Shown here in pieces: positions 7,794-31,147 of a DNA stretch of 64,000 nucleotides. The position numbers were made by a program, and so were the translations under genes. The stretch spans positions 36,063 to 100,062 of the forward strand of contig CARPYP010000002.1 of assembly GCA_949045875.1 (NCBI GenBank), in the 5' to 3' direction. This DNA comes from an uncultured Clostridia bacterium (GTDB taxonomy: Bacteria > Bacillota > Clostridia > TANB77 > CAG-508). A model generated the notes under the pieces. That model saw nothing but the letters and a program-made list of their open reading frames with translations. It ran no database searches and was not told where the DNA came from. Within the stretch, counting starts at the first letter, position 1. Each line of letters begins with the position of its first letter.

Positions 7794-8258
7794 ATGTATA
7801 TAAAAAGATTAATATTTATTTTTATAGTTTTATTTTTTGTATTATTTTACTCCTGCTGTTCTTTTGCCTCTACTTATGAATATATTTGGTCAACTGTCGC
7901 AGATACAAATTCTGGTAATTCGTCTATCGCTGTGTCTTCTGACTTAAATAGTGGTTCTTTAAATTTAGAATCTACTGGTGCAATTTTAATTGAGCAATCT
8001 ACTGGACAGATATTGTATGAACAAAATTCTCATGAAAAATTACGTCCTGCAAGTGTAACAAAAGTTATGTCTATTTTACTAATAATGGAAGCTTTAGATA
8101 GAGGTGAAATCGCTTTAGATACTTTAATTCCATGTAGTGAAAATGCAAGGTCTATGGGTGGTTCACAAATATGGCTAGATACTAGAGAAACTTTAAGTGT
8201 AAATGATATGTTAAAAGCTATATGCGTAGTATCTGCTAATGATTGTAATGTTCAATAG
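7794..8258 (+). pseudogene. 5-prime part of a split sporulation-type D-alanyl-D-alanine carboxypeptidase (PBP5*/DacF/DacB-like), interrupted at the SAND motif
   Basis: Signal peptide, SxxK motif (ASVTK). Ends SANDCNVQ-stop right at the SxN motif. The continuation is found at 33180. Confidence 0.85.
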
Positions 8259-13939: not shown

Positions 13940-14262
13940 ATTAAAATTGTCTTTTCTAATCTTTTTTGGTTTTTTGTTCCTTAAATTTGTTCTTATTAGT
14001 CTTTTTCGGACTTTTAACATAAATCTATTTATAATCATCTTAGGTGATGAAAATGAGTAGAACCATTAAGCCCTACAAAAGAAAAAAGGGTTCACCAAAA
14101 CAAAAAAGAAACCTAGAAGCATTTAATATATTTACTGATGAATTAGTGCATAATTACTTTAAGCCTATTGAACGAAAAGTATTAATGAAAATTTAATATT
14201 TTATTTTAAATTTTGAAACTTTTTTTATAAAATTTATATCTAATTAATGTAAGGAGGTTTAT

Positions 14263-15270
14263 ATGTCAAAGAAATTATTTATTATATTATTTTTATTATT
14301 TATTATATTTGTTATTATTTCATATTTTATATATGAAAATTCAAAAATTAACATTCCAGTAGATGGTACTTCTCAATCTAATATACCTTATTTATTTAAT
14401 AATATTGTTCCTAATGGATTTTCTAAAGTTGAATTACCTGATGCTAGTTGGGAACTAGATGAGTATGGTAGACCTAAAGGCTGGAATAATGGGTTGGTTG
14501 TTGAAGATAGTAATGGAAATCAATTTGTTTGGGTCCCTTGTTCTATTAATTCTTCTGACTTAACTACATATGGAAGATATACATATTCAACAGACGATTT
14601 CTATTTATCAAATGATGAACTATTAGTTTCAGATATTGGTGATTTATTTGTTGATAATGATACAGTAAATTTGGTTATTAAACAAAGTGTTGAAAAATAT
14701 GGTGGTTTTTATATTGGAAGATATGAAACTGGAATAGAAAATGGAAATTTACTAAACAAAAAAACTAGGGATAATACTGAATTGAATTGGACAGGTTGGA
14801 GTAATGGAAATTTAGCTATAAAACAAAATTTGCAGGTTTGGAACTATATCACATTAGACAAAGCTATTGAACTAAGTAATTCTTTCATAGATAATGAAAC
14901 TGTTGCAAGTTCGATATTGACCTCATATTGTTACGATACCACTTTAAAATGGATAAGTTCTACAAATAATTCCTTTTGGACTAACATGTATGAGTATGGA
15001 AATTTTAATAATAGAGACAAAGATGGACTTGCAAATACTGGAACTTCTTCTAATACTAAGTTAAATAATATATATGATTTAGTTGGAAATGTATGTGAAT
15101 GGTCTACAGAAAAGTGTATTGACGATGTCGCTATCCAAACCAATCTTACTGCTGTGATTAAGGGTGGACATTGGCATACTCATTCTTCTGCAATCTATAG
15201 TAGAGTTCCTACATTTCCTTATTATGCTAAAGATACTATTGGATTTAGAATTATTTTATATTTAAAATAA
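14263..15270 (+). CDS. Membrane-anchored formylglycine-generating-enzyme (SUMF1/FGE-sulfatase) domain protein
   Basis: N-terminal TM helix. GFYIGRYE, NVCEWS, IKGGHW...IGFRI motifs of the FGE-sulfatase fold. Confidence 0.65.
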   Translation: MSKKLFIILFLLFIIFVIISYFIYENSKINIPVDGTSQSNIPYLFNNIVPNGFSKVELPDASWELDEYGRPKGWNNGLVVEDSNGNQFVWVPCSINSSDLTTYGRYTYSTDDFYLSNDELLVSDIGDLFVDNDTVNLVIKQSVEKYGGFYIGRYETGIENGNLLNKKTRDNTELNWTGWSNGNLAIKQNLQVWNYITLDKAIELSNSFIDNETVASSILTSYCYDTTLKWISSTNNSFWTNMYEYGNFNNRDKDGLANTGTSSNTKLNNIYDLVGNVCEWSTEKCIDDVAIQTNLTAVIKGGHWHTHSSAIYSRVPTFPYYAKDTIGFRIILYLK

Positions 15271-15316: not shown

Positions 15317-17221
15317 CTATTTAGTTGTTATATATATATCTATATCTCCTATTGCCTCTTTGTTATCTTGATTCTCACTATAGAAACTACAATAATATTC
15401 AAAATATTTATCTACTCCGTTAGTTATTTTAATTTCATTTGACTCATATTCTTTCCCAGGTATATTATAATTACCATTTGCTATTGGTTCTTTTCTTCCA
15501 TATTCATATAATTGTAATCGTAATGATAAATCCGATGGCTCTCCTGAACTTAATATATAATTAAGAGAATATTTCATTTTATCTGCTAACACATTAAATA
15601 ATTGTCCTCTACTTGAGTGTACTTGTTTAGCTGTTCCTAAATAATATTTATCTGCTCCTTCTCTTATTGTACAATGTCCTGCAAGTCCTGGTGTTCCAAG
15701 TTTTGATATTGGTTTAAAGTTTGAATTACTGTTATATGAAACTATATCTAAATCCCATGTTCCACTTGCTGTTTCAATTTTTTTAATTGTTTTAAATTGA
15801 TCAAATGTCCAACTTTTTGGAATTGTTTCTCCTAAATTTCCTTCCCAGCCTGTTGACATATCACTTACGAAAGCTGTAACAGCATATCCTTTATCTAATA
15901 CTCTTTTACATACCTTTCTTGTTCCATAAATACCTACTTTATATGTAGCACCAGAATCTGCTGTAGAACTTATTGTGCTATTCAATTCTTTAAAGTATGG
16001 AATTATATTATTATCAATTTGGCTATCTGTTGCATCTAAATCCACTGCAAAATATATAACATTTCCTGAATCTATACCATGCTTCTTCGCTGCATGTTTC
16101 GCACTTAGTGCATCTATTCTACCATTTTCTTTCGTAAAATAGTCTATATCTGATCCTGACTCTTGAAAAATCGGGAAAAATGATAAACCTGCATCCAATA
16201 TTCTTTGGGGTTCACCTGGTCTTAATTGTTTAAAAATTCCTCCAGTTAAATATCTACCTACTATTCTATATCCATTATTATATAAATATTCTAATCTGTC
16301 ACTTGTCATTTCATGTCTTGTATCACATGCTAATGCTGTTCTAGAGGTATCTCCACAACTTACAGCTAATGCTGCCCATGTTTGTCTTCCACAAACTCCA
16401 TCTGGTGTTAGATTATAATCTTGTTGACATAGCTTTACAGCTGATTCTACACCTGCACCAAAACCTCCATCAAATCCATTTGGATTATATCCATTTACAT
16501 ATAATAAATATTGTAATATATATACCATTTGTTTATTAGTTACAGTTCCATATCTTCTTAGAGTAGGTAACTTTGACATTGTACCTTCTCCCCAAAGTCC
16601 GTCTACTGCTGAATTTACCTCGATTTGTATTGCACTAATTAATGCTTTATTCGTCTTTTTTTCATACAATCCATTTGTTGCAATTAATCCTATTTTATTA
16701 CCATATTTATTGTTTAAATTTCTTTGTATAGTTCTTACATTTTCATCTCCTCCTGATACAAGTATATATGAATCTGTTGTTAAAATTGCTTTCATTAGAT
16801 AACCTCTAACAACTCCATCTTGTGTAACTCCAACTTGCTCTTGAAATTTTTTTACTGCTGATGTTAAGTTATTACCAAAAGCACCATCTAATCCTCCTGG
16901 TATAATTCCTCTAGCTGTATAAAAAGCACCTTGTAAAATACATACTATTCTTTTTAACTTATCTCCATCTTCCAATACTGTTGATGAACTTAATCCTGAA
17001 GGAAACAAAGAATTAAATTGAGTGCTTGTTCCTCCACCCCAAATTCCATCAGCTACTGTTTCAACTTCTATCTGTAAGGCTTGTATTAAACCTTTAATTG
17101 TCGTTCCTCTTCCTGTTCCGTCTGTTGGAACTCCAATTGTAAACAATGGATTTTCTCCATATATTCTATGTAGCCATCTTTGAGTTTCTACTAACATTTC
17201 ATCTACTGCCATAATAATCAC
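15317..17221 (-). CDS. Cell-wall hydrolase-like protein with peptidoglycan-binding repeats and a DUF1906 (Rv2525c-like glycoside-hydrolase) domain
   Basis: Repeated DG.WG..T and DGGFG...TW PG-binding-like segments. DUF1906-like GRYLTGG...IYFAVDLD...YKVGIYGTRKVC block. Confidence 0.6.
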   Translation of the reverse strand: MIIMAVDEMLVETQRWLHRIYGENPLFTIGVPTDGTGRGTTIKGLIQALQIEVETVADGIWGGGTSTQFNSLFPSGLSSSTVLEDGDKLKRIVCILQGAFYTARGIIPGGLDGAFGNNLTSAVKKFQEQVGVTQDGVVRGYLMKAILTTDSYILVSGGDENVRTIQRNLNNKYGNKIGLIATNGLYEKKTNKALISAIQIEVNSAVDGLWGEGTMSKLPTLRRYGTVTNKQMVYILQYLLYVNGYNPNGFDGGFGAGVESAVKLCQQDYNLTPDGVCGRQTWAALAVSCGDTSRTALACDTRHEMTSDRLEYLYNNGYRIVGRYLTGGIFKQLRPGEPQRILDAGLSFFPIFQESGSDIDYFTKENGRIDALSAKHAAKKHGIDSGNVIYFAVDLDATDSQIDNNIIPYFKELNSTISSTADSGATYKVGIYGTRKVCKRVLDKGYAVTAFVSDMSTGWEGNLGETIPKSWTFDQFKTIKKIETASGTWDLDIVSYNSNSNFKPISKLGTPGLAGHCTIREGADKYYLGTAKQVHSSRGQLFNVLADKMKYSLNYILSSGEPSDLSLRLQLYEYGRKEPIANGNYNIPGKEYESNEIKITNGVDKYFEYYCSFYSENQDNKEAIGDIDIYITTK

Positions 17222-18062: not shown

Positions 18063-18300
18063 ACTTTAATTAACAAATATAAAGAGGTTTTTCTGTAATA
18101 AATAGGAAAACCTCTTTTTAATTTGGATATTTAATAATTAGATTTTATTAATGAATCGACTATCAACAATAAAACACCACATTTATCTTTCTTCTAAATT
18201 TTGTTATCAAACATTCTTTATAATATTATTAATATTTATTAAAATTCTGATCAGAAACATAATGAATATAAAAATTTTATAATTGAAAGAAGGTTTTTTT

Positions 18301-20211
18301 ATGGCAGATATATTAGTTGAAAAAACTCAACAATGGCTTAACGAAACTTATCATGGTAAACAAGGATATGGTGAAGATATTGTTGTTGATGGAATTACTG
18401 GCTGGGGCACAGTTCATGCACTTCTTAGAGCTTTCCAAATAGAATTAGGTATTACAGCTACATCAACTTCTTTTGGTCCTTCCACTACATCAAAATTTAA
18501 AGCAAGATTTCCTAATGGTGTACAACAACAATCCTCAGACGATACAACAGAAGATAATATATATGGAATTATTCAAGGTGCTTGTTTCTGTAAAGGTTAT
18601 TCAATAGGCTCAAATGATATAACTAATCATTTTTACTCTGGAACAGGTTCTGCAATTACTTCCATAAAAAAAGATGCTGGGTGCTCAGATACGAGTTCTA
18701 CGGTTACCCTTAATATGATGAAAGCATTACTTTCTATGGATCAATTTAAACTTGTACGTGGTGGAAATAGTAATATTAGAGAGATTCAACAAAAACTTAA
18801 TAACAAATACGAAAATTACATTGGATTAACACCTTGCGATGGAGTTTATAGTAGAGAAATGAATAAATCTCTTATAGCTGTACTCCAAAAAATAGAGGGA
18901 TTTACTGGCTCAAATATAGATGGCAAATTTGGCAATGGTACTAAATCACGTTTACCTATTGTCCCTAGTAATGGTAATCTTAATAATGAGACTGAGCAAG
19001 ATGCAATAGAACTTGTTAGATATGCATTAGTATGTAATGGTTATCCAATAGATGTTGGTATAAATTCTAATAAATGGGATTCATTCTTGGGCAATACTAT
19101 TGGAAGGTTTCAAAAAGATATGATTTTAGAGGAAACAAATATATGCGATACTAACACTTGGATGGCTTTATTAGTAAGTACAGGTAATCAAGATAGACCT
19201 TACAATGCCATCGATACAGCATATACTATCCATAGTGAAATTCGTGATATTAATAGAGTAGATATTGTGAAAAATTTAGGAGTGTCTATTGTTGGAAGAT
19301 ATATTAGTGGTAATAAAGGAAAAGAGTTGGCATTTGATGAAGCTAAAGGTATGTTAGATAATGGTATAAACTTTTATCCTATATATCAAAGAGATGGTGA
19401 ACCAAGCATAAGCTACTTTACAGAGTCTCAAGGATGGAAAGACGTTCAAGAAGCATACTCAAGAGCAAGAAGTTATTGTATTCCTAAGGGAACTATAATT
19501 TATTTTGCAGTTGATATTGATATGCTTGATAATCAAATAGAAAAATACGCCCTTCCCTATTTTAAAGCAATTGATGGAGGTTCTACATATTATAAAGTTG
19601 GTGTGTATGGAACTAGAAATGTTTGTTCACGTGTAATGGATAAAGGATACGCAACAACTTGCTTTGTTAGTAATTCTTCTTCTGGATATTCTGGTAATAT
19701 GGGATTTAAAATGCCTACTAATTGGAATCTTGACCAATTTCAGACAAATGTTAAAATAAGTGATAACTTTGCAATAGATAAAAATATTTTCTCTAATAAA
19801 TTTCCTGTTGTTACTGAGTTATCTCCAAGAGATTATTACTACGGAACTGTTTTATTAGAATCTGGACATCTTGTTGGTAGACAGCTTAAATATGCAGGTA
19901 GAAAATTAAACTTATCTATTCAAGCAAGTGGTGAGAATGGTGAAAAATATGATAATATGATTGTTGATGTATGGTTTAAGAATGTTGAACCATTTGAAGA
20001 TTGGGCTTGCACAAAAGGACATGTTGTTGCTAATGTAGATAATAAAATATATAATTTATCATCTACTCAAGATAACGACTCCATATTTATTAATGATACA
20101 ATACCTTATTATATTGAATATGATGTTTTTAGAATAACTGATACTGGTTATGTTAGAGTTACAGATAAAAAAATTAAAATTACTACTACTGTTAATGCTT
20201 ATTATTTATAA
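18301..20211 (+). CDS. Paralogous PG-binding plus DUF1906 hydrolase-like protein (divergent copy of 15317-17221)
   Basis: Same domain order. VGRYISGNKG...IIYFAVDIDM...YKVGVYGTRNVC. Confidence 0.6.
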   Translation: MADILVEKTQQWLNETYHGKQGYGEDIVVDGITGWGTVHALLRAFQIELGITATSTSFGPSTTSKFKARFPNGVQQQSSDDTTEDNIYGIIQGACFCKGYSIGSNDITNHFYSGTGSAITSIKKDAGCSDTSSTVTLNMMKALLSMDQFKLVRGGNSNIREIQQKLNNKYENYIGLTPCDGVYSREMNKSLIAVLQKIEGFTGSNIDGKFGNGTKSRLPIVPSNGNLNNETEQDAIELVRYALVCNGYPIDVGINSNKWDSFLGNTIGRFQKDMILEETNICDTNTWMALLVSTGNQDRPYNAIDTAYTIHSEIRDINRVDIVKNLGVSIVGRYISGNKGKELAFDEAKGMLDNGINFYPIYQRDGEPSISYFTESQGWKDVQEAYSRARSYCIPKGTIIYFAVDIDMLDNQIEKYALPYFKAIDGGSTYYKVGVYGTRNVCSRVMDKGYATTCFVSNSSSGYSGNMGFKMPTNWNLDQFQTNVKISDNFAIDKNIFSNKFPVVTELSPRDYYYGTVLLESGHLVGRQLKYAGRKLNLSIQASGENGEKYDNMIVDVWFKNVEPFEDWACTKGHVVANVDNKIYNLSSTQDNDSIFINDTIPYYIEYDVFRITDTGYVRVTDKKIKITTTVNAYYL

Positions 20212-20411
20212 TAAAGTTTTAGCATATATTTAATTTTATAATCTACCCAATAGAATTGATACTAAAATTACTTCCTATTGGGTAGATTTTGATGTATAAT
20301 ATAGATAAATTAGTATGGATATATATTTTATTTTAGAATATACACTTATTTTTTTATATTTATGAAACTATTATAGAAAATTTTGTATCTAATATATGAT
20401 AGGAGGAAAAA

Positions 20412-21248
20412 ATGAAAAAATTTAATTTACTAAAACTAATAATAATTATTATATTTATCATTATTATATTATGTATTTTTGTAACCTTAAAGTTAATTCT
20501 AAATAAGGTTTTGTATATTAATGATACTTCAAATTATACCCCCCATGATAATGTTACTACACATACAGATATATCAAACATTACATTTCAAGACTATACT
20601 GAAAAGGTTAAAGGAATCATATTTTCATCATATAATGGTACTAACACAGAATATAATTATAATATTCTAAGTATAAAAAATGATTATATGATTTATAATG
20701 ATCATATTGTTTGCGATATCCCTAACTATACTTTTTTTACTTTATATACTCCTTTAGATATTGAAATTTTAAGTTATACTAACTCTTGCACAATATCATT
20801 TGATGATATTGAAGAAAATGACATATTGATTTATAATGGTACAATTTCATATTCTACTAGTAATTCATCTCCTAACATAGCAAAAATTAATGGCGATTTA
20901 CCTATATATATACTAAAAGAAAATGAATTGTCAGAACTTATCCTAAATGAATATAATGATAAAAAGGAATTATCAAATGTACATATTAGATATCAAACTC
21001 CATATCTTGAAGATTTCAATGTTACTTATTTATTTGCAGAAATAACTTATATATCATCTAAAAATGATAAATTTATATATCCGATAATTCTCGAAATATC
21101 TGAAGATACTATAGTGAAAAATAATAATTTGAAAACAGAACTTCATGAAGTATATGCGAATATAGTATTAAAAAATTCTTTTGAAATTTCTGAAACTTCT
21201 GCAATTTATAACGTTAAAAAGATAAAAGAAATTACATATAAAAACTAA
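20412..21248 (+). CDS. Hypothetical membrane-anchored protein
   Basis: N-terminal TM helix, GGAGG RBS. Confidence 0.5.
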   Translation: MKKFNLLKLIIIIIFIIIILCIFVTLKLILNKVLYINDTSNYTPHDNVTTHTDISNITFQDYTEKVKGIIFSSYNGTNTEYNYNILSIKNDYMIYNDHIVCDIPNYTFFTLYTPLDIEILSYTNSCTISFDDIEENDILIYNGTISYSTSNSSPNIAKINGDLPIYILKENELSELILNEYNDKKELSNVHIRYQTPYLEDFNVTYLFAEITYISSKNDKFIYPIILEISEDTIVKNNNLKTELHEVYANIVLKNSFEISETSAIYNVKKIKEITYKN

Positions 21249-21325
21249 CTCTCAAAATTCTCGACAAAAAGTAGATTTCATAGCATAAAAAATTATATCA
21301 GTACAAATAGTACTGATATAATTTT

Positions 21326-22384
21326 TTATTTTATTATAGATGCCTTACCAAAATATGTTTTAAACGCACTCCAGTCATATGGTTCTATCATTAAATTCAT
21401 TACTGGATAATTTATTACCCAAATACTATAATCATGTAATATCTCGTGTGCTTCAAAGCACTTTTCAATATCACGTTCATCAAGCCCTTCTTTCAATAAA
21501 TTACAGAATTTTTCTAAATCTCTTTTAGTTTCTTCATCTTTTATAATTTCAACCTGTTTTTTTACCTCTTGTAATACTTTTATTAACCTATCTCCATTAT
21601 ACACTTTTGTTCCTGTTATATTATCTGTAAATACCTCATCATAAATTTGTTGTCTCCAATAATAGCTTGTTTTCTCTTTTAATACCCATGTACTTTCACC
21701 TAATATACTCTCCATCATACATTGATAATCGTATATGGTTTTCTGTAGCTCTCTTATTTCGTTTTCATTTAAACCTGTTAATGCTTTTTCTTTTGCTTTA
21801 TAGCATATATCTTTATTAGGTAGTTCTAAATTACTTTTATGAAGATAATACTTTGGTTTTTCAAAACCATATAATTCATAATATGCTCCACCATTTACAG
21901 TAAAATTAACTTTCAAATCGCCTTTTATTAGTTTTATATATCCTAGCTTTTCTTGCATTTCGGTTACATGTATAGCTTCTAACTCCAGCCTAGTAGTACT
22001 ATCTTTGCCTTTAATATCAATACCCAAATAACAACATTCTATATTTTCATCTGTCTCAGTCCATGTAGCATTATGTAGAATTCTTACTAACTCTAATATT
22101 AAATCGCTATCTGTATAAATATCTGTCTTTTGGTCTTCTGTTTGGTAATTTATTAATTTTATTTCTGATATATCTCTAGGTAAATAATTAGAAATATCGC
22201 TTTTTTCCAACAGTTTATTTATTTCTGCGTTTGTGTCTTTTACTTTTTCATCTTCTTGATTAAAATTAGACTCTTCTTTTGATTTTTCTTCTTTTTTCTC
22301 ATTTATCCCTTTCATGGTTACTATTCCAATAATACCACTTATTATTAAAATTATAACTATAAATATAATTACCTTCTTTTTCAT
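21326..22384 (-). CDS. Hypothetical exported or membrane-anchored protein
   Basis: N-terminal hydrophobic segment. 352 aa ORF. Confidence 0.5.
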   Translation of the reverse strand: MKKKVIIFIVIILIISGIIGIVTMKGINEKKEEKSKEESNFNQEDEKVKDTNAEINKLLEKSDISNYLPRDISEIKLINYQTEDQKTDIYTDSDLILELVRILHNATWTETDENIECCYLGIDIKGKDSTTRLELEAIHVTEMQEKLGYIKLIKGDLKVNFTVNGGAYYELYGFEKPKYYLHKSNLELPNKDICYKAKEKALTGLNENEIRELQKTIYDYQCMMESILGESTWVLKEKTSYYWRQQIYDEVFTDNITGTKVYNGDRLIKVLQEVKKQVEIIKDEETKRDLEKFCNLLKEGLDERDIEKCFEAHEILHDYSIWVINYPVMNLMIEPYDWSAFKTYFGKASIIK

Positions 22385-22425: not shown

Positions 22426-23133
22426 TTATATTTTATTCAATACTGTAAAAATTACTGTCTTTGCTGTTGGCTTCTTATCATCATAAAATCCAAAATATCT
22501 TTTTAATCTTTCACTATCACATTCATAATACATACATTCTGTTGCTCTAGTAATATCACATTTTATATTATGTATAGGTTTATTGTGTATTTTTGATATT
22601 ATCGGATATACATCTTTTTGAAGATTATCTAACATAGCTTCTCTATTTAAATATATTTGAAGAATTGCATCTACTAAGTATTTAGTACCTATATGTTCTA
22701 TATTATATCCTATATATCTTAACTCATTAATTATACTTTTTCGTTTTATCTCCAAGTCTTTGCTTATAATCATCCTATTAATTTTATATAATATTTCATT
22801 ATTATCATCATCTTTAGCTGAGTAATCAAATATCATTTTATTTCCTATATATTTTTGCACTTCTTTGAGATTTCTTGTAGTTAATATTATAGAGTCTCTA
22901 TATTTGTCTTGTTTTTCTATCTTAATCATATCAAATATCGTATCTCTATTATTTCTAATAATATTTAAGTCTACTAAAGCTACATCTATATTCTCATTAT
23001 TTAAAATATCTATTGTTTCTTTTTCATTCATTGCTATTTTTTCTATTCTTATATTTTTATTTTTTGTTACTACTTCATTTATTAACTTTTTTAGTTTTAA
23101 TACATCTCTATCGGCTATTAGCATATTAACCAT
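22426..23133 (-). CDS. Spo0A-like protein: degenerate receiver domain plus Spo0A C-terminal DNA-binding domain
   Basis: VALVDLNI receiver aspartate region. C-terminal GTKYLVDAILQIYL...VYPIISKIH...ITRATECM resembles Spo0A_C. Confidence 0.55.
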   Translation of the reverse strand: MVNMLIADRDVLKLKKLINEVVTKNKNIRIEKIAMNEKETIDILNNENIDVALVDLNIIRNNRDTIFDMIKIEKQDKYRDSIILTTRNLKEVQKYIGNKMIFDYSAKDDDNNEILYKINRMIISKDLEIKRKSIINELRYIGYNIEHIGTKYLVDAILQIYLNREAMLDNLQKDVYPIISKIHNKPIHNIKCDITRATECMYYECDSERLKRYFGFYDDKKPTAKTVIFTVLNKI

Positions 23134-23276
23134 TTTATCACCCCACTATAATACTATTAATTAGATACACTATATTGCTTTTGGGTTTCAAATTCGTTTT
23201 ATTTTTTTTTATCTTTTTGTATTTATTTATATATTCGTTGATATAATTATTAAAACTTTACAAAGGGGGTGTATTA

Positions 23277-23702
23277 ATGAAAAGTCTAGTTACGAAATTA
23301 TGTACATCTATATTAATGTCATTTTTATTGGTATATCTATTTATTTGCTCTACTCCAGTTAATGCCTCAAGTCCATATAGCATTCAGCCTTATGCATACT
23401 ATTCTACAGGTTCTTTTCAATTTAAAGGTAGTAGTAGACCAATTACTAAAAACTATGATGGCACTTTTATGGCTATTGAAGCCAAGTCTACATCAGCATC
23501 TGGAAATATTTACGATGTAACAATATATGTAACCATTGCTAGTCGTAAAGTTACTAATAAATATACAATATCTACAAATGGTTCATCAAAGAAATTTGAC
23601 TACATATTTTTAGGTTTGTCTGGTTCTAGTGATGTTTCTATTGAATGTAAATGTAATTCTTCGGATACTATAAACATAGAATTAACATCCTATAGTTGGT
23701 AA
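23277..23702 (+). CDS. Small secreted hypothetical protein
   Basis: Signal peptide, GGGG RBS. Confidence 0.5.
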   Translation: MKSLVTKLCTSILMSFLLVYLFICSTPVNASSPYSIQPYAYYSTGSFQFKGSSRPITKNYDGTFMAIEAKSTSASGNIYDVTIYVTIASRKVTNKYTISTNGSSKKFDYIFLGLSGSSDVSIECKCNSSDTINIELTSYSW

Positions 23703-23711
23703 TATTAAATT

Positions 23712-23750
23712 ATCTAGGCATTTCTGCCTAGATTTCCTTTTTATATAACT
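23712..23750. terminator. Bidirectional terminator
   Basis: TAGGCA-TTTC-TGCCTA hairpin with flanking T-run. Confidence 0.6.
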
Positions 23751-25116
23751 TTATAACTTCATTTTTATTTTTTAATACTAATTGTTTGTAATTATCTTCT
23801 AATTTTATATCTGATAAAATTAAATAATAATATATTTCTTCACTGTTATACGAACTTAATAGCCTATAATTACATTTATTTTTATAATACTCATCTATTT
23901 CTAATGTAAAATTTACATCCATACTTTTACTCTTTATAATAGCATAAAAACCTGTTTCTGTTATTATAGCCTTTTGAATATTATATTTATTGTTATCTTC
24001 ATATTCTGTAATATATTCAATAGTATTGGTATTAATAAATTTTTCATCTATGTCGATATATATCTTCTTTTCATTTTCATTAATTATTTTACTGTCTTTG
24101 CTTGGATTATTACTATTATAAATCATAACTTTAGAAAAAGTTATTTCTAATTTTTTCATATTGAAATTTCCATTTGATATCATATAGTTTAACTCTCTTA
24201 TATTGGTGTTTGACTCAGTTTCTATATTCTTCCATCCTTCTAATTGAACTATAGTTTCTTCCATTAGATCTTTATTATTAAATATAATATTATTATTTTC
24301 ATCTTTAATCGTTAAATCTATTATGCTCATTCTATCATATTCATTCAAATCTTCATCCGATTTTAAGTCATAAATCATATACATATTAATATCATCAAGT
24401 AATAAGTAATCAATTCTTATTTTATATCCTTTGTCTAACTCTATATAGTCCATTTCAATATTCTGTACCCATTCTTTTTCCTCTATTGCCATCAATATTC
24501 CATCATTATTTTGTCCTATACTACTTAAATTAAAAATACCTTTTAAATAATTTATTATGTCTTTTCCAAATGTTATTCCTGTTGTTACAATTCCTAAGAT
24601 TACAACTATCATTATAATCTTCTTATATGTAGAATTTACTTTTTGCCTTCCTCTACGTAACTTTGTTTTAATAGTATTTGGATTAATTTTTAGAATTTTA
24701 GATATATCTTCTATTGAATATTGTTCTTCATAATACAGTTTAAAAATATTCTTTTCAATATCATTTAATTCTTGTATTAGAGTATCAAATTCTAAAGATT
24801 CATCTTTCGTATTTTTGTTTTCTAAGTTTTCTTTATATCTATTTTTCATATTATCTTCATATTTTTTATTTCTGTAGAATCTATTACATTTATTAATTAA
24901 TATTTTAATAAGCCATGTTTTAAAATATTTATTATTTCTTAATTGACCTATTTTTAAATATGCATTTATTATGGTTTCTTGAATTACATCTTCTATATCA
25001 TCATAATCCCTAATTCTTTCTTTTGCAATTCTATATAACTCTTCTTTCATATCCGTTATTAAGATCATATAAGAATCTTTATCTCCATTTTTTACCCTTT
25101 TTACTAATTCTTCCAT
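23728..25116 (-). CDS. ECF-type sigma-70 factor fused to a transmembrane segment and a large C-terminal extracytoplasmic domain (sigma/anti-sigma-like fusion)
   Basis: Region-2-like DVIQETIINAYLKIGQL and region-4-like SIEDISKILKINPNTIKTKLRRGRQ. Then TM helix IIMIVVILGIVTTGITFG plus about 270 aa. Confidence 0.6.
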   Translation of the reverse strand: MEELVKRVKNGDKDSYMILITDMKEELYRIAKERIRDYDDIEDVIQETIINAYLKIGQLRNNKYFKTWLIKILINKCNRFYRNKKYEDNMKNRYKENLENKNTKDESLEFDTLIQELNDIEKNIFKLYYEEQYSIEDISKILKINPNTIKTKLRRGRQKVNSTYKKIIMIVVILGIVTTGITFGKDIINYLKGIFNLSSIGQNNDGILMAIEEKEWVQNIEMDYIELDKGYKIRIDYLLLDDINMYMIYDLKSDEDLNEYDRMSIIDLTIKDENNNIIFNNKDLMEETIVQLEGWKNIETESNTNIRELNYMISNGNFNMKKLEITFSKVMIYNSNNPSKDSKIINENEKKIYIDIDEKFINTNTIEYITEYEDNNKYNIQKAIITETGFYAIIKSKSMDVNFTLEIDEYYKNKCNYRLLSSYNSEEIYYYLILSDIKLEDNYKQLVLKNKNEVIKLYKKEI

Positions 25117-25224
25117 TAACTCACCTTTTATTAGATAATATTTCCTTAAAATAGTTTTACCTCTTTTATTATATTTTAATTTTACTAAAAAGTAAAATAT
25201 AACTTTACATATTTCGTAATATAT

Positions 25225-25795: not shown

Positions 25796-26140
25796 ATGCA
25801 AAGTATTGACGAAAGTAATTTTAAAAAAAATGTTGGTGAAAGAATTAAGAAATATAGAGATGTTACACAGGAAGTTTTATCTGAGAAAGCACAAATTTCT
25901 TCTGATACTCTTTCATTAATAGAACGTGGAGAGAATACAGCTTCTAGTTTAACTTTAGTAAAAATATGCAATGCATTAAATACAACTCCAAATCACATTT
26001 TAAAAGAATTTATTTCTAATAAATCTGAATGTATGGATTCTATTCTTCTCGATGAAATATCACATCTTACAGTAGAAGAAAAGGATTTTATATTATATAC
26101 AATAAATTTCATTAAACAGAATAAACAACTAGGACAATAA
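25796..26140 (+). CDS. XRE-family HTH transcriptional regulator
   Basis: LSEKAQISSDTLSLIERGEN HTH_3 pattern. AGGAGG RBS. Confidence 0.75.
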   Translation: MQSIDESNFKKNVGERIKKYRDVTQEVLSEKAQISSDTLSLIERGENTASSLTLVKICNALNTTPNHILKEFISNKSECMDSILLDEISHLTVEEKDFILYTINFIKQNKQLGQ

Positions 26141-26204
26141 TAATTTTCATGATTTTGAAACTTTTTTTCTTTACTTAGTATCTAAATACTAAGAGGTGTT
26201 TTTT

Positions 26205-26537
26205 ATGAACTTATCATATCCCCTTTTTCAACATTTTATTCAAAAACATGGCAAAGATAACCTATTTGATATTATTAATACTATATTAAATGAATTTGAT
26301 AGTAATATATTAATTAACTTTGATATTCCATTAGAGAAATATGTTCAATTCATATTTGCAATTGCTACAGCAAAATTTCTTAACTTTGACGATTATAAGA
26401 GAATAATATTGTTAAATAGTTCTTCTAAAGACTTGCTTCTTTATGATTATTTTAAATCTATAAATGCTGTTAAACTTCATTCTAAGTCAATTTCAAAAAT
26501 CATATTTTTTCTTAAACAGGATTTTCCTAATCTTTAG
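26205..26537 (+). CDS. Hypothetical protein
   Basis: ORF with AAGAGG RBS. Confidence 0.4.
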   Translation: MNLSYPLFQHFIQKHGKDNLFDIINTILNEFDSNILINFDIPLEKYVQFIFAIATAKFLNFDDYKRIILLNSSSKDLLLYDYFKSINAVKLHSKSISKIIFFLKQDFPNL

Positions 26538-26584: not shown

Positions 26585-26953
26585 TTAATTATTATTCCAT
26601 TCATATTTACACAATACTGTATATATAATGGATTTCAAACTAGGTTTTGTATTTTCTTCTATGTTAAAATATTTACATATTTTACTCTCTTCTGTATTAT
26701 TATACATAGTCCTTACAGATTGTTCTATACACCACTTAACATTGGATGGCGACTTCTCTTTATATTTTTCTGCAATAAAAGGGAATACATTTTTATGTAA
26801 ATTTTCTATAGCTTCAGCATCCTTTATACATAAATATATTGCCTCATTAAGATATCTAAATCCTTTTGTATATTTTCTAAAACTAAACTTTGATAATTCA
26901 TTTAGTATAAATTCTTTTGTTCTCTTGTCCTCCATTCTATTCCTCCTCAACAA
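26585..26953 (-). CDS. Stand-alone Spo0A C-terminal-domain-like protein
   Basis: GFRYLNEAIYLCIKD...VFPFIAEKY...VKWCIEQSVRTMY resembles the Spo0A_C DNA-binding domain. Confidence 0.5.
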   Translation of the reverse strand: MLRRNRMEDKRTKEFILNELSKFSFRKYTKGFRYLNEAIYLCIKDAEAIENLHKNVFPFIAEKYKEKSPSNVKWCIEQSVRTMYNNTEESKICKYFNIEENTKPSLKSIIYTVLCKYEWNNN

Positions 26954-27728
26954 TTAATTTTTGTCCTATTTGGATAAAATTAGGATTATCACCTATTGTT
27001 TCTTTATTTAAATTATAGATTTCTTTCCAGTTTGTATTAAATTTTTTTGCAATTTTAGTAAGAGTATCACCAGATTGCACTACATAGATATTATTTTTTT
27101 CAGTTAATAAATTTAGTTTAGCATTTCTTATTATAGACGGATAATCTCTCAAGTCATAGTTTAAATCTACTTTTCCAGCTATTCCAGATATATTTCCATT
27201 AGATGAATATTGCCACATTCCAAATTCCTTTTTATACTTACAACTATTTGACCACTGAGCTACCCATTTATCAAATTTGTCTAATCTACTGTCATTTATT
27301 TTATTATTTAACCAATCTAAATTAGCATAAATTCCCACATAATAGCCAGCATTTTCTATGCGATTGCAAAAAGTCTCACATATATCAATACAAGTAGAGT
27401 AATTTACTTTATTTTGTGATTTATAATTATCTGCATCCTCCATATCAATATAAATAGGATACTCCAACTTAAGATCTTTTACTGTATCTAAAACAAACTG
27501 TGCTTCCTTTAAAGCATCATTTGTATTAAGAGCATAAGAGTATATATATACTCCTATTGGAATTCCTTGCTGAATGGCTTTATTGTAATTTTCATAAAAT
27601 TTTTTATCAATATGATTCTCTTTTTTTCTATATCCTAGTCTTAATATAATAAATTCTATTCCACTTAACTTCACCTCTGACATATCTATAGTGCCATTGT
27701 GATATGATAAATCAATACCTTTCTTCAT
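26937..27728 (-). CDS. Endolysin: GH25 muramidase with C-terminal LysM domain
   Basis: GIDLSYHNG..., YIYSYA, DxE-type GH25 pattern. C-terminal LysM (YVVQSGDTLTKIAKKF...). Confidence 0.85.
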   Translation of the reverse strand: MKKGIDLSYHNGTIDMSEVKLSGIEFIILRLGYRKKENHIDKKFYENYNKAIQQGIPIGVYIYSYALNTNDALKEAQFVLDTVKDLKLEYPIYIDMEDADNYKSQNKVNYSTCIDICETFCNRIENAGYYVGIYANLDWLNNKINDSRLDKFDKWVAQWSNSCKYKKEFGMWQYSSNGNISGIAGKVDLNYDLRDYPSIIRNAKLNLLTEKNNIYVVQSGDTLTKIAKKFNTNWKEIYNLNKETIGDNPNFIQIGQKLIVEEE

Positions 27729-28316: not shown

Positions 28317-28790
28317 TTATTTCTTATTCTCTAAATTAGTTATTGTATTATCTATTATTTTTTGATATTGCTCTAATCCTTTTTTTAGAAACTCTGGAAC
28401 ATTTATACCAATTTCAATTAGATTTTCTATGATACTTCTAGATTCATTTATTATAAGACAAGCAAGTGTAAACCAGCCAAAAAGCATAATAAATTCTAAA
28501 TTAATGTTAATTTTATTTCCTAATTGTACTAGTAAATATGATATAAAAAATGATACCCCTATAAGAATCCAATAACAAATTTTTTTAACCACCCCAACTA
28601 ACCCTCTATTAGAACTCTCAGCTTTTTTTACCTTAGCTTTTATAGTTCCTGTAAAATAATCCACTAGATTCAATAGCAAATATCCTGCAAACAATACCCA
28701 TTCAATTCCAAATATTGATGTGAGTATTGTGCAAATGCCACTTATTGTAGTAGTTGTTTTATTAAATATTTTTAACATTTCTTCTTCCAT
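28317..28790 (-). CDS. Phage holin (TcdE / phage_holin_4_1-like)
   Basis: 157 aa, three TM segments, charged C-terminus. Lies upstream of the endolysin. Confidence 0.7.
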   Translation of the reverse strand: MEEEMLKIFNKTTTTISGICTILTSIFGIEWVLFAGYLLLNLVDYFTGTIKAKVKKAESSNRGLVGVVKKICYWILIGVSFFISYLLVQLGNKININLEFIMLFGWFTLACLIINESRSIIENLIEIGINVPEFLKKGLEQYQKIIDNTITNLENKK

Positions 28791-29643: not shown

Positions 29644-30336
29644 CTATTGCTCAACATAGTATCTTACCATTGAAATAACACATTTAGGGCTAGGGCTTTC
29701 ATATTCACCTAATCGTAAAAATTTCCTTACTTTTTCCTTGTTAGCATATAACCACATTTTATTAACTGCTCCTTGAATATCAGCTTTAATTGTATATGAG
29801 CTTTTTTCTTCTAATTCTGCTAATTCATCATAAATTATCTTTAAATTTTCCTGTTTTTCTTTAGTTGATATTTCAATACATTCTTTAATAAATTGTGTTC
29901 CTTTATGCTCAGCTCTAAATCCCATTTTAAAGAGTATTTCGTAAATTTTTTTATCCAATTCTTCGTTAGCAATATTTTTTGCAATCTTCTGAATTTCTAA
30001 TCCAACATTTTCATAGGATTCAACTTTATTAAATACTTTCTCTACACTCTTGAATTCCAACACTCTAGCCATATGATTTGTCTCTTCTGAGTATATAATA
30101 ACTCTTGTTTTTAATGTAATATCATTTTCTATCTTTCGTAAAATATCAAATTCATCTTCCGTTTGTAATTTTAAATCAAGTATAACAATTTCAGGCTACA
30201 ATAATTTTATTGTTTCATAAACTTTAGTTTCATCATTAATAATAGATACTGCTTGAGCAGATTTCGTAAAATTAATCACATTTGAAAGATGTATACTGAT
30301 TGGCATATTATTCTCAGCAATAAGTACCTTAACCAT
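29644..30336 (-). pseudogene. Spo0A-like gene broken by an in-frame TAG at 30197-30199. The Spo0A_C part (142 aa ORF) remains
   Basis: Upstream frame encodes a receiver domain MVKVLIAENN...KLL-stop-PEIVILDLKL... continuous with the ORF. GGGAGG RBS at 30337-30350. Confidence 0.6.
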
Positions 30337-30424: not shown

Positions 30425-31147
30425 TTATTTTTTTGTCGAATTTTGTCGTATTTCATTTATAATTTTCTCTCCCCCTGGATGTATATATCTATCTGTTGCA
30501 TTAGACGTTTGTCCTAATGACTTTTTTAGCATCATATCAGTATAACCTTCTTCATATTTATTAGTAGCGAAATCATGTCTAAAAATATGTGGATTAATAC
30601 TATTTTCATTAATTTTTTTACAATACTTTTCTAACATTTTATTAACCATACTTCTATCAATCTTTTTCCCTGTTTTTACTGATTTGTTACTTATAATTAA
30701 GTACTTATTTTCTCTTCCATCTAATTGTTTATTCCTTATAGGTAAATATTCCTCCAAAACATCAAACATAGCATTAGTTATTATAATTTCTCTGATTCTA
30801 TTTCCTTTTCCCCATATAGTAATTTTACGCATTTCTAAATTAATATCTCTTTCTAACTGTATATTTATTACTTCAGAAACTCTTAAACCTCCTTCATGTA
30901 TAAAAACTAATATTACTTAACCTGCATCTGTTAATAACTTAGCACTAATCTTTATATTCGATAAACCATATTTTAAATTATTGTAAAATTCTTTTAAATT
31001 TGCTTCTGACTTTGTCCTTTCTTCACATGAAGTAACTATTAAATAATTTTTTCTAACGTATAAATCTTCCTCTTGCATAATATTTTCTAGGTATTCTATA
31101 ATACTTCTTCCATAATCAATCATTTTTTCATTTTTTTGCTTTTGCAT
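30425..31147 (-). pseudogene. Tyrosine recombinase/integrase remnant with an in-frame TAA at 30917-30919 and further upstream stops
   Basis: GLRVSEV box I, HIFRHDFAT and TDRYIH catalytic motifs. The frame is continuous across the stop. Confidence 0.7.

What the first reader, a model, noticed from the sequence alone, without database searches (positions are those of the whole stretch)
23728..25116. Single-polypeptide ECF sigma factor fused through a TM helix to a 270 aa extracytoplasmic domain
Regions 2 and 4 of an ECF sigma occupy the first 170 aa or so. A single hydrophobic helix follows, then a large Asn/Ile-rich domain with no recognisable fold. Sigma and anti-sigma functions are normally on separate proteins. 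A membrane-tethered one-component sigma inside a mobile element suggests a signal-triggered release mechanism, for instance regulated proteolysis.
Basis: partly seen in the sequence, partly recalled or inferred. Interest (0 to 1): 0.55.

Follow-up and report, generated by a model that had tools for sequence, protein, structure and literature searches.

The report
One-piece membrane-tethered ECF sigma factor
This gene really does encode a transcription (sigma) factor joined through one membrane helix to the outside sensor part of its former inhibitor; the design is rare but already known from other bacteria, and here it appears to switch on a Spo0A-like regulator and several envelope genes on a 25 kb inserted element in a gut Clostridium.

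Summary
ORF 23728-25116 (-) encodes 462 aa: an ECF sigma (regions 2 and 4, aa 1-165), one TM helix (aa 167-184) and a 277 aa outside domain.

It is not an artefact. At least 68 protein clusters down to about 33% identity keep the fusion, and they form essentially one clade.

The outside part is not fold-less. It carries Pfam DUF4179, the RsiV-type TM plus amphipathic-helix switch. Its model matches only PDB 3FBQ, the ectodomain of the B. anthracis anti-sigma factor BAS1627.

Sister loci encode the same sensor as a separate anti-sigma protein. Compared with them, the fusion has lost the roughly 45-55 aa cytoplasmic sigma-binding segment, so inhibition must come from tethering alone.

The likely activation route is signal peptidase followed by a site-2 protease. 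This is inferred, not shown.

The clade's promoter (TGAAAC-N19-TCTAAT) lies in front of a conserved neighbouring Spo0A-like gene and of three more genes on the element. That element splits a DD-carboxypeptidase gene.

Precedents exist (IutY, ECF52), so this is a new variant of a known kind. Interest is moderate.

The parts
23728..25116 (-). Fused ECF sigma / TM / sensor gene (462 aa)
   Evidence: ORF; domains; conserved full length in at least 68 clusters
24862..25062 (-). Sigma region 2 (aa 19-85)
   Evidence: Pfam Sigma70_r2, E 1.8e-11; invariant D40, F65, W68, I72, N75 in the family
24637..24795 (-). Sigma region 4 (aa 108-160)
   Evidence: Pfam Sigma70_r4_2, E 4.4e-12, and Sigma70_r4
24565..24618 (-). 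Single TM helix (aa 167-184), ending in T-F-G. This is a candidate signal-peptidase site after G184.
   Evidence: Only hydropathy peak; charge +7 inside and -1 outside; position 184 is G in 24 and A in 16 of 40 members; only 6-7 residues separate region 4 from the helix
24358..24615 (-). DUF4179 module (aa 168-253): TM helix plus juxtamembrane amphipathic helix (aa 186-198, DIINYLKGIFNLS)
   Evidence: Pfam 31.2 bits against a cut-off of 30.1; 37 of 40 family members match; hydrophobic moment 0.48-0.56; role in RsiV from PMC6066255
23731..24561 (-). Extracytoplasmic sensor domain (aa 186-462): two short helices followed by beta-sandwiches
   Evidence: AF2 model pLDDT 88.3, pTM 0.85; Foldseek hit to 3FBQ, E 1.7e-8, TM 0.56, 284 columns; homologous to split anti-sigma ORFs, E 4e-50
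25168..25196 (-). Sigma-A-type promoter candidate for the sigma gene (TTTACT-17-TATAAT)
   Evidence: Consensus scan, 10 of 12 matches. Consensus match only.
25130..25158 (-). Weak ECF-like site (TAAAAC-N18-TCTAAT), 14 nt before the sigma ATG
   Evidence: Relaxed scan. Seen only in the window and its 87% relative L003, so of doubtful significance.
23712..23733 (.). Bidirectional hairpin terminator between the sigma gene and the convergent small gene
   Evidence: 9 bp stem with T-runs on both strands
23277..23702 (+). Conserved convergent gene for a secreted protein of about 14 kDa (141 aa; signal peptide, then about 110 aa mature)
   Evidence: Syntenic in fused and split loci; alignment shows the signal peptide and a conserved mature domain; no Pfam hit
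23160..23189 (-). ECF promoter TGAAAC-N19-TCTAAT in front of the Spo0A-like gene
   Evidence: the same motif is in the same place in 11 of 11 module loci under a relaxed pattern; it is the autoregulatory motif of 21 stand-alone relatives
22426..23133 (-). Spo0A-like regulator (235 aa): degenerate receiver plus conserved Spo0A_C DNA-binding domain. Predicted primary target.
   Evidence: Pfam Spo0A_C, E 4e-11; Response_reg only E 0.021; acidic pocket not conserved; syntenic
21326..22384 (-). N-terminally anchored 352 aa membrane protein, 42 nt downstream of the Spo0A-like gene and probably co-transcribed with it
   Evidence: ORF; TM anchor; hairpin at 21285-21329 after it
20364..20393 (+). ECF promoter TGAAAC-N19-TCTAAT, 19 nt before the 278 aa membrane-anchored ORF (20412-21248)
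14215..14244 (+). ECF promoter TGAAAC-N19-TCTAAT, 19 nt before the 335 aa membrane-anchored FGE-sulfatase-like ORF (14263-15270)
26157..26186 (+). ECF promoter variant (TGAAAC-N19-TCTAAA, one mismatch), 10 nt before the 113 aa ORF (26196-26537)

Best explanation
The gene encodes a one-component transmembrane ECF sigma factor.

Origin: it arose once, from a sigma / DUF4179-type anti-sigma gene pair. An in-frame fusion removed the tail of the sigma and the roughly 45-55 aa cytoplasmic sigma-binding segment of the anti-sigma.

Off state: region 4 runs into the membrane helix after only 6-7 residues. The sigma domain is therefore held against the membrane and cannot form a productive holoenzyme. 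This point is inferred.

Sensor: the outside part keeps the RsiV-type DUF4179 switch and an ectodomain with the BAS1627 (3FBQ) fold. The switch is a TM helix ending in a small residue, followed by an amphipathic helix.

Activation (inferred): an unknown extracellular cue, possibly involving the conserved co-located secreted 14 kDa protein, exposes the site at the end of the helix to type I signal peptidase. A RasP-type site-2 protease then cuts within the helix and releases the sigma domain.

Output: the free sigma directs RNA polymerase to TGAAAC-N19-TCTAAT promoters.
- The conserved target is the neighbouring gene for a Spo0A-like regulator with a degenerate receiver. That regulator would thus be controlled by its abundance rather than by phosphorylation.
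- In this window the operon also includes a membrane protein.
- Three further genes of the 25 kb element carry the promoter, and at least two of them encode membrane-anchored proteins.

Steps shown here: architecture, topology signals, homology to split anti-sigmas, loss of the cytoplasmic segment, fold, single origin, promoter motif and its positions.

Steps inferred: inactivity when tethered, the two proteases, the cue, and that this sigma rather than a paralogue reads these promoters.
For: Architecture and topology.

Fusion conserved: 47 full-length clusters. 68 fused against 46 split among near-complete ectodomain relatives. The fused forms make essentially one clade that is sister to split pairs.

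Split relatives L008-L012: a sigma of 177-184 aa, then an overlapping ORF of 337-356 aa with the same TM/juxtamembrane motif. Residues 148-437 of the fused protein align to these ORFs, from about residue 34-63 of the ORF onward, at E 4e-50 to 2e-41. Their N-terminal 35-55 aa therefore have no counterpart. These ORFs hit DUF4179 only.

DUF4179: above the gathering score in the window protein and found in 37 of 40 members. In RsiV this module carries the signal-peptidase site-1, masked by amphipathic helices, and RasP then cuts (PMC6066255, PMC8844934).

Cleavage-site features: position -1 is G or A in 40 of 40 members and -3 is T or V. The following helix is amphipathic.

Fold: 3FBQ is the only significant PDB match and covers the full length.

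Precedent that tethering plus RIP suffices: IutY (PMC5411451).

Promoter: the motif lies upstream of the sigma gene in 21 stand-alone relatives and upstream of the Spo0A-like gene in all module loci. The window has 3 exact hits against 0.33 expected, and only 1 of 100 shuffles reaches 3. All are 19-27 nt upstream of a same-strand start codon and all lie inside the element.

The terminator after the sigma gene shows that the Spo0A-like gene needs its own promoter.
Against: - No experiment. Cleavage, the proteases and the cue are all inferred by analogy.
- The DUF4179 score is marginal (31.2 against 30.1 bits).
- In RsiV the released fragment is an inhibitor that is then degraded. Here the released fragment must survive with a hydrophobic C-terminal stub, which in Bacillus RsiW-type systems acts as a Clp degron. 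Stability is therefore an open problem.
- The fused sigma gene itself lacks a conserved ECF promoter, which is unusual for ECFs.
- Hosts carry several paralogous sigmas of this clade (for example two loci from each of several MAGs) that may read the same motif.
- The ligand of the 3FBQ-type domain is unknown.
Confidence: 0.55

Rival explanations
1. The full-length protein is active while still in the membrane. It would be a ToxR/CadC-like membrane-bound sigma that recruits RNA polymerase to DNA at the membrane, with the ectodomain modulating activity by conformation or oligomerisation and no proteolysis.
For: There is no anti-sigma domain to remove. The sigma gene has only a sigma-A-type promoter candidate and no autoregulation, as expected for a constitutively present receptor.
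Against: Only 6-7 residues separate region 4 from the bilayer, and the model makes one continuous helix over aa 146-195. This leaves little room for the beta-flap and the -35 DNA. The conserved small -1 residue and the DUF4179 switch have no role in this model. The one tested analogue, IutY, needs RseP cleavage (PMC5411451).
Confidence: 0.17
2. It is a constitutively processed pro-sigma. The TM helix acts as an uncleaved-looking signal anchor that signal peptidase and the site-2 protease cut as soon as the protein is inserted. Control would then be transcriptional only, and the ectodomain would be a discarded or separately functioning secreted product.
For: The helix ends in a plausible signal-peptidase site in all members. 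An Xre-type HTH gene often lies next to the sigma gene, and A-rich phased repeats lie upstream. These could give transcriptional control.
Against: The 277 aa ectodomain and the amphipathic helix are conserved down to about 33% identity. They are shared with bona fide anti-sigma proteins whose job is to gate cleavage.
Confidence: 0.13
3. It is an artefact or pseudogene: a frameshift or assembly error has joined a sigma gene and an anti-sigma gene, or the sigma part is a degenerate decoy.
For: Split sigma/anti-sigma relatives have overlapping genes, so a single indel could in principle join them.
Against: The identical protein occurs on 23 or more contigs from independent samples. At least 68 clusters keep one frame with the same junction and lack the 45-55 aa segment. 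They form a clade. The r2 and r4 motifs are conserved in 40 of 40 members. A matching promoter motif is conserved next door.
Confidence: 0.02

Closest known systems
IutY of Pseudomonas putida (sigma/anti-sigma hybrid of cell-surface signalling; ECF243)
   Same: A single polypeptide with a cytosolic ECF sigma domain, one TM segment and an extracytoplasmic anti-sigma-type domain. There is no separate inhibitor. It is activated experimentally by site-1 (Prc) and site-2 (RseP) cleavage, and truncation activates it (PMC5411451, PMC8999054).
   Different: It is from a Gram-negative bacterium. It has a FecR-type periplasmic domain that receives its signal from a TonB-dependent outer-membrane receptor, and its site-1 protease is Prc. 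The protein here has a DUF4179/3FBQ-type ectodomain in Clostridia, with signal peptidase as the expected site-1 enzyme. No sequence relation beyond the sigma core was found.
SigV/RsiV (ECF30) of B. subtilis, C. difficile and E. faecalis
   Same: The DUF4179 TM plus amphipathic-helix module directly after the membrane helix. The TGAAAC-type -35 element is typical of Firmicute ECFs. The route of signal peptidase followed by RasP is the model transferred here (PMC6066255, PMC8844934).
   Different: RsiV is a separate protein with an N-terminal sigma-binding domain and a lysozyme-binding C-terminal domain. Here the sigma replaces that N-terminal domain, and the ectodomain matches 3FBQ, not RsiV. 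NCBIfam SigV scores only 71.7 bits against a cut-off of 190.
BAS1627 anti-sigma factor of B. anthracis (PDB 3FBQ)
   Same: The whole ectodomain fold, comprising two juxtamembrane helices and beta-sandwiches: Foldseek E 1.7e-8, TM 0.55-0.56, 284 columns. It is a DUF4179 member (PMC6066255).
   Different: It is a separate anti-sigma protein. Identity is only 15%, and a sequence profile does not detect it. Its ligand and function are unknown.
ECF48/52/53 of Actinobacteria (for example SCO4117)
   Same: ECF sigma with a C-terminal extension containing TM helices and an extracytoplasmic domain. Release by proteolysis is predicted (PMC8999054).
   Different: Those extensions retain a zinc-finger (ZAS) anti-sigma domain between the sigma and the membrane. 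Here no residues are available for one and no zf-HC2 hit was found. They also belong to a different phylum and have different ectodomains.

Membership tests
ECF (group 4) sigma-70 family | Regions 2 and 4 present; regions 1.1 and 3 absent | tested here: met
   Pfam r2 and r4_2 with a 22-residue linker between them. Sigma70_ECF 22.3 bits against a cut-off of 21.1. TIGR02937 72 bits against 42.9. PDB profile hits to SigW and RpoE over positions 5-164.
ECF (group 4) sigma-70 family | Cognate promoter with an AAC-containing -35 element and a conserved -10 element, associated with the locus | tested here: met
   TGAAAC-N17-21-TCTAAT lies upstream of 21 related sigma operons and next to the fused gene in all module loci. 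Four sites occur in the window. Recognition by this particular protein was not tested.
ECF (group 4) sigma-70 family | Membership of a named equivalog (SigV, SigW, SigM, TIGR02954 and others) | tested here: not met
   The best hit, TIGR02954, scores 115.7 bits against a cut-off of 188.5. All named equivalogs fall far below their cut-offs.
DUF4179-type (RsiV/BAS1627-like) anti-sigma factors | TM helix followed by juxtamembrane amphipathic helices (Pfam PF13786) | tested here: met
   31.2 bits against a cut-off of 30.1, aa 168-253. 37 of 40 family members match. Hydrophobic moment 0.48-0.56 for aa 186-198.
DUF4179-type (RsiV/BAS1627-like) anti-sigma factors | N-terminal cytoplasmic sigma-binding (anti-sigma) segment before the TM helix | tested here: not met
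   Split relatives have 45-57 aa before the helix. In the fused protein, region 4 ends at about aa 160 and the helix starts at aa 167. Alignments to split ORFs begin at the helix.
DUF4179-type (RsiV/BAS1627-like) anti-sigma factors | Signal-gated site-1 cleavage by type I signal peptidase, then RasP | not testable with these tools
   Only the sequence prerequisites could be checked: -1 is G or A in 40 of 40 members and -3 is T or V.
DUF4179-type (RsiV/BAS1627-like) anti-sigma factors | Ectodomain fold of a solved family member | tested here: met
   3FBQ: E 1.7e-8, probability 1.00, TM 0.56/0.55.
IutY-type sigma/anti-sigma hybrid | One polypeptide: cytosolic ECF sigma, single TM helix, extracytoplasmic anti-sigma-derived domain | tested here: met
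IutY-type sigma/anti-sigma hybrid | FecR-type periplasmic domain, partner TonB-dependent transducer, ECF243 sigma | tested here: not met
   No FecR Pfam hit. The host is a Gram-positive Clostridium-like organism. The neighbours are a secreted 14 kDa protein and a Spo0A-like regulator.
IutY-type sigma/anti-sigma hybrid | Activation by sequential proteolysis that releases the sigma domain | not testable with these tools
   Needs Western blots and protease mutants.
ECF52-type fused ZAS sigma | Zinc-binding anti-sigma (HxxxCxxC) domain between the sigma and the TM helix | tested here: not met
   No zf-HC2 hit. Only 6-7 residues lie between region 4 and the helix, and none is Cys or His (sequence).

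The most novel reading that the evidence does not exclude
The cassette (tethered sigma, secreted 14 kDa protein, pseudo-receiver Spo0A paralogue) is a signalling device that lets an extracellular cue set the level of a phosphorylation-independent Spo0A-like DNA-binding protein. In this genome it is carried, with three further Spo0A_C genes, on a serine-recombinase element that interrupts a DD-carboxypeptidase gene. A mobile element would then use it to tap into, or override, the host's Spo0A/sporulation regulon. It would also be the first natural Gram-positive case showing that membrane tethering alone, without any anti-sigma domain, is enough to silence an ECF sigma.
Probability: 0.15. Interest if true: 0.75.

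Novelty: new variant of a known kind. Interest (0 to 1): 0.5.

Why it matters
ECF sigma factors are normally silenced by a separate anti-sigma protein that clamps regions 2 and 4. This clade has discarded the clamp and kept only the membrane anchor, the RsiV-type cleavage switch and the sensor.

That makes it a natural experiment on whether tethering alone suffices. It also raises the question of how a released sigma escapes the degradation that normally follows site-2 cleavage.

It is a compact, apparently orthogonal single-gene 'outside signal to promoter' device from Gram-positive gut anaerobes, and its promoter is already predictable.

Its conserved output is a Spo0A-like regulator with a degenerate receiver. 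This links envelope sensing to a family of Spo0A paralogues about which nothing turned up in the limited literature searches run here, which did not target them directly.

Tried and rejected
- A classical Bacillus ECF promoter (GAAAC-N15-18-CGT) gave 1 hit in the window against 0.77 expected, and it was not near the gene. I dropped it in favour of the motif found by comparing loci.
- Megablast of 20-30 kb of the window against the plasmid and phage collections found no match.
- IMG/VR viral contigs hold no relative of the ectodomain.
- The metagenome-contig scan returned only 2 loci.
- Cluster look-up gave no source names.
- Sequence-profile searches of the PDB with the ectodomain found nothing. 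Only the fold comparison found 3FBQ.
- PADLOC gave no defence-system hit for the cassette or the target genes.
- The supplement of the ECF classification paper is not held. I therefore could not check whether an existing ECF group or subgroup already lists this fusion.
- Literature searches for a DUF4179-fused or 'membrane-tethered' sigma in Firmicutes found nothing specific.
- I considered that CGAA-containing '0A-box-like' sequences upstream of the sigma gene mark control by the Spo0A-like protein. This was not pursued, because they are too short and too few to test.
- I considered autoregulation through the TAAAAC-N18-TCTAAT site at 25130-25158. It is not conserved beyond the 87% relative.
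Full report
**1. The observation**

An uninterrupted ORF of 462 codons occupies 23728-25116 on the minus strand. The window has about 25% G+C.

The sigma part is well supported:
- Pfam places Sigma70_r2 at aa 19-85 and Sigma70_r4_2 at aa 108-159. Sigma70_ECF is above its cut-off.
- NCBIfam's general ECF model TIGR02937 is passed at 72 bits against a cut-off of 42.9. No named equivalog is reached; the best, TIGR02954, scores 115.7 against 188.5.
- A profile of the family matches solved ECF sigmas (SigW, RpoE, SigH) across positions 5-164 and matches nothing beyond that.

There is exactly one hydrophobic segment, aa 166-185. Net charge is +7 just before it and -1 just after it, which indicates that the N-terminus is inside and the C-terminus outside. 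The remaining 277 residues are enriched in Asn and Ile (13.0% and 15.2%, against 6.5% and 10.4% in other proteins of the window).

**2. Not an artefact**

- The identical protein is found on 23 or more contigs from NCBI, ENA, JGI and Logan.
- 47 clusters at 90% identity cover the full length down to 34% identity.
- An exhaustive search with the C-terminal part alone found only 119 representatives in 1.84 billion proteins.
- Among near-complete relatives, 68 are fused and 46 are stand-alone.
- All 40 aligned fused members keep r2 and r4, and 37 keep DUF4179.
- A neighbour-joining tree of the ectodomain puts the fused proteins in essentially one clade. The few 'unfused' members inside it are short fragments. 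Two fused outliers, P0053 and P0138, sit among split proteins.

The fusion is old and has been maintained by selection. The hosts are uncultured gut Clostridia, Clostridiaceae and Clostridium MAGs.

**3. What the C-terminal part is**

The segment directly after region 4 is Pfam DUF4179 (aa 168-253, just above the gathering score). According to PMC6066255, DUF4179 is the TM helix plus amphipathic helices of the anti-sigma factor RsiV. It contains the signal-peptidase site-1 and masks it until lysozyme binds; RasP then cuts (see also PMC8844934). DUF4179 also occurs in BAS1627 of B. anthracis, whose ectodomain is PDB 3FBQ.

An AlphaFold model of aa 186-462 (pLDDT 88.3, pTM 0.85) has a single significant PDB match, 3FBQ, over the whole length (E 1.7e-8, TM 0.56). 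All other hits are immunoglobulin-like noise with rmsd of about 15 Å or more. 'No recognisable fold' is therefore wrong: this is the sensor half of a known class of anti-sigma factor. The ligand of that class is unknown.

**4. How the fusion was made**

Genome loci fetched with the family alignment fall into two kinds:
- L003-L007 are fused (444-468 aa).
- L008-L012 and others have a sigma of 165-185 aa followed by an overlapping ORF of 336-403 aa.

That downstream ORF has three parts: a cytoplasmic N-terminus of about 45-57 aa (for example MEHNKNNPKDEIDDLLYDYFKNNDEDVPIETSKAIDEALYKKKKH), then a TM helix, then the same juxtamembrane motif as here (TTGxxFAKDIxxF...N.D..I..AI....YIQNVDMDY).

BLASTP aligns aa 148-437 of the fused protein to these ORFs, starting at their TM helix, at E 4e-50 to 2e-41. 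They hit only DUF4179 in Pfam. The fused protein therefore equals sigma plus anti-sigma, minus the tail of the sigma and minus the whole cytoplasmic segment of the anti-sigma. In this type of anti-sigma, that cytoplasmic segment is where the sigma is bound (established for RsiV-type proteins; inferred for these).

In every fused member, the sigma match ends 1-5 residues before the ectodomain match begins. The full-length model draws one continuous helix from aa 146 to 195: the last helix of region 4, the TM helix and the juxtamembrane helix.

**5. Cleavage signature**

- The last residue of the helix (position 184) is G in 24 and A in 16 of 40 members.
- Position -3 is T or V.
- The split relatives have A or S at -1.

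This satisfies the -3/-1 rule of type I signal peptidase. The next 11-13 residues (DIINYLKGIFNLS) form an amphipathic helix with a hydrophobic moment of 0.48-0.56, as in RsiV. The helix also contains Gly and Thr residues (GIVTTGITFG), as site-2 protease substrates often do. These are prerequisites, not proof.

**6. Context: a conserved cassette**

Contigs for distant fused homologues (37-55% identity) have unrelated flanks: purine genes, a P-type ATPase, PGA_cap. The same three genes recur in all of them:
- the sigma fusion;
- a convergent gene of 136-141 aa;
- a gene of 211-236 aa with a Spo0A_C domain, divergent from the small gene.

The closest split loci (L008, L010, L012) have the same neighbours.

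The small protein has a conserved signal peptide and a mature domain of about 110 aa. It has no Pfam family.

The Spo0A-like protein has a well conserved Spo0A_C DNA-binding domain. Its receiver half is degenerate: Response_reg scores only E 0.021, the acidic pocket is not conserved, and the putative acceptor Asp is replaced in two of the ten aligned sequences.

A 9 bp hairpin with T-runs on both strands separates the sigma gene from the small gene. The Spo0A-like gene therefore needs its own promoter.

**7. The promoter**

The intergenic region in front of the Spo0A-like gene contains TGAAAC(C)-N19-TCTAAT in the window, L003, L005, L006, L083, L085 and L087. One- or two-base variants (TGCACC, TGCAAC, TCTATT, TCTTAT) occur in L008, L010, L086 and L088.

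The same motif, (A/T)TGAAAC-N18-20-TCTAAT, often with G before the TCTAAT, lies 29-127 nt upstream of the sigma gene in 21 stand-alone relatives. That is the usual autoregulatory arrangement, so the motif is the clade's cognate promoter.

In the window the exact pattern occurs three times against 0.33 expected, and only 1 of 100 shuffles reaches 3. Each occurrence lies 19-27 nt before a same-strand start codon with a good ribosome-binding site:

| Position | Strand | Downstream gene |
|---|---|---|
| 23160-23189 | - | Spo0A-like gene, then a 352 aa membrane protein |
| 20364-20393 | + | 278 aa membrane-anchored protein |
| 14215-14244 | + | 335 aa membrane-anchored FGE-sulfatase-like protein |
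| 26157-26186 (one mismatch) | + | 113 aa ORF |

The fused sigma gene itself has only a sigma-A-like candidate (TTTACT-17-TATAAT) and a non-conserved TAAAAC-N18-TCTAAT site. It is probably not autoregulated.

**8. The mobile element**

Most of the window is chromosomal. It carries queH, ruvB, an aspartate carbamoyltransferase, NAD-salvage genes, IMPDH, pta-ackA and spoIIM.

A DD-carboxypeptidase (Peptidase_S11) gene is split. Profile positions 9-109 are at 7794-8258, and positions 110-239 plus PBP5_C are at 33184-33960. The two halves share the core ATGATTG, and joining them would restore ...VVSANDC|TMAMAEYLGG.... Two or three large serine recombinase ORFs lie at the left end, at 8376-11581.

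The region of about 8250-33170 also holds:
- a holin and a GH25-LysM lysin;
- two PG_binding_1/Rv2525c-like hydrolases;
- an HTH_36 protein;
- a truncated tyrosine integrase;
- four Spo0A_C genes in all.

The cassette and all four predicted promoters lie inside this element. 'Inside a mobile element' is therefore true here, but the cassette also occurs in unrelated flanks elsewhere.

**9. Comparison with what is known**

- The closest functional precedent is IutY of P. putida: sigma, then TM helix, then a FecR-type periplasmic domain, activated by Prc and RseP. Its authors called it a unique hybrid (PMC5411451).
- ECF48/52/53 of Actinobacteria are predicted to work similarly but keep a zinc-finger anti-sigma domain (PMC8999054).
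- ECF263 has extensions with multiple TM helices, and ECF258 has separate DUF4179 anti-sigmas (PMC7826278).
- I found no description of a DUF4179-fused ECF. I could not consult the ECF classification supplement.
- Databases already carry the domain architecture as an automatic annotation.

**10. Verdict**

The mechanism is probably membrane tethering relieved by cleavage with signal peptidase and then a site-2 protease (confidence about 0.55). The main rivals are activity while tethered and constitutive processing.

This is a new variant of a known kind and is moderately interesting. The most original aspects are the loss of the anti-sigma domain, the conserved link to a pseudo-receiver Spo0A paralogue and a secreted partner, and carriage on an element that interrupts a DD-carboxypeptidase gene.

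Noticed in passing
window 7794-8258 and 33165-33960; element about 8250-33170; recombinases 8376-9542, 9607-9978, 9935-11581: A DD-carboxypeptidase (Peptidase_S11/PBP5) gene is cleanly split by an element of about 25 kb, with large serine recombinases at one end and a shared core ATGATTG. This resembles the skin/SPbeta/gin/yin class of elements that interrupt sporulation genes and excise in the mother cell. Whether this dac gene is sporulation-specific, and whether the element excises, is unknown.
   Followed up: partly
window 22426-23133, 26585-26953, 29644-30072 (all minus strand); also L001: The element carries several Spo0A_C-domain genes: one with a degenerate receiver (235 aa) and two or more short ones (122 and 142 aa) without any receiver. 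I did not investigate the function of these Spo0A DNA-binding-domain paralogues.
   Followed up: partly
L016, L021, L023-L028, L030, L037, L039, L052, L071, L082: More distant sigma/DUF4179 anti-sigma pairs of the same clade also have a Spo0A-like (235 aa type) gene within a few kb. In L021 and L028 the TGAAAC...TCTAAT motif sits directly upstream of it. The link between ECF sigmas and Spo0A paralogues therefore seems broader than the fused clade.
   Followed up: partly
window 23190-23240 (minus-strand reading); the same region in L005, L008, L085, L086, L087; the reverse complement upstream of sigma genes in L004, L005, L009 and the window (about 25185-25200): Phased A-rich repeats (AAAAAGATA / AAAAAGTAA every 10-11 bp, 2-4 copies) lie just upstream of the -35 element of the Spo0A-like gene's promoter, between the two divergent promoters. 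The same words occur in the opposite orientation upstream of several sigma genes. They could be an UP element or a regulator binding site. Unexplained.
   Followed up: no
window 23277-23702 (+): The small secreted protein (141 aa) has a conserved extended -10 sigma-A promoter (TGATATAAT) in most loci. It is always convergent with the sigma/anti-sigma gene. It is a candidate ligand or co-sensor for the ectodomain.
   Followed up: partly
window 15317-17221 (-) and 18283-20211 (+): Two paralogous proteins of about 640 aa with PG_binding_1 plus an Rv2525c-like glycoside-hydrolase-like domain lie between two of the predicted ECF promoters. Together with a holin (28317-28790) and a GH25-LysM lysin (26937-27728), they make the element rich in cell-wall enzymes.
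   Followed up: no
window 30425-30832 (-), 34928-35383 (-), 9607-9978 / 8376-9542 (-): Truncated or split genes: a 135 aa C-terminal fragment of a tyrosine integrase, a Fic fragment, and a serine recombinase apparently broken into a Resolvase part and a Recombinase part. These are signs of decay in and beside the element.
   Followed up: no
proteins P0053 (485 aa) and P0138 (517 aa): Two fused-architecture proteins fall among split anti-sigma proteins in the ectodomain tree. They are either independent fusion events or gene-calling artefacts.
   Followed up: no
L006, L087, L088 (upstream of the sigma gene); window 25796-26140 (+): A small Xre-type HTH_3 gene is frequently adjacent to the fused sigma gene: same strand and immediately upstream in several loci, divergent in the window. 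It is a possible transcriptional regulator of the cassette.
   Followed up: no
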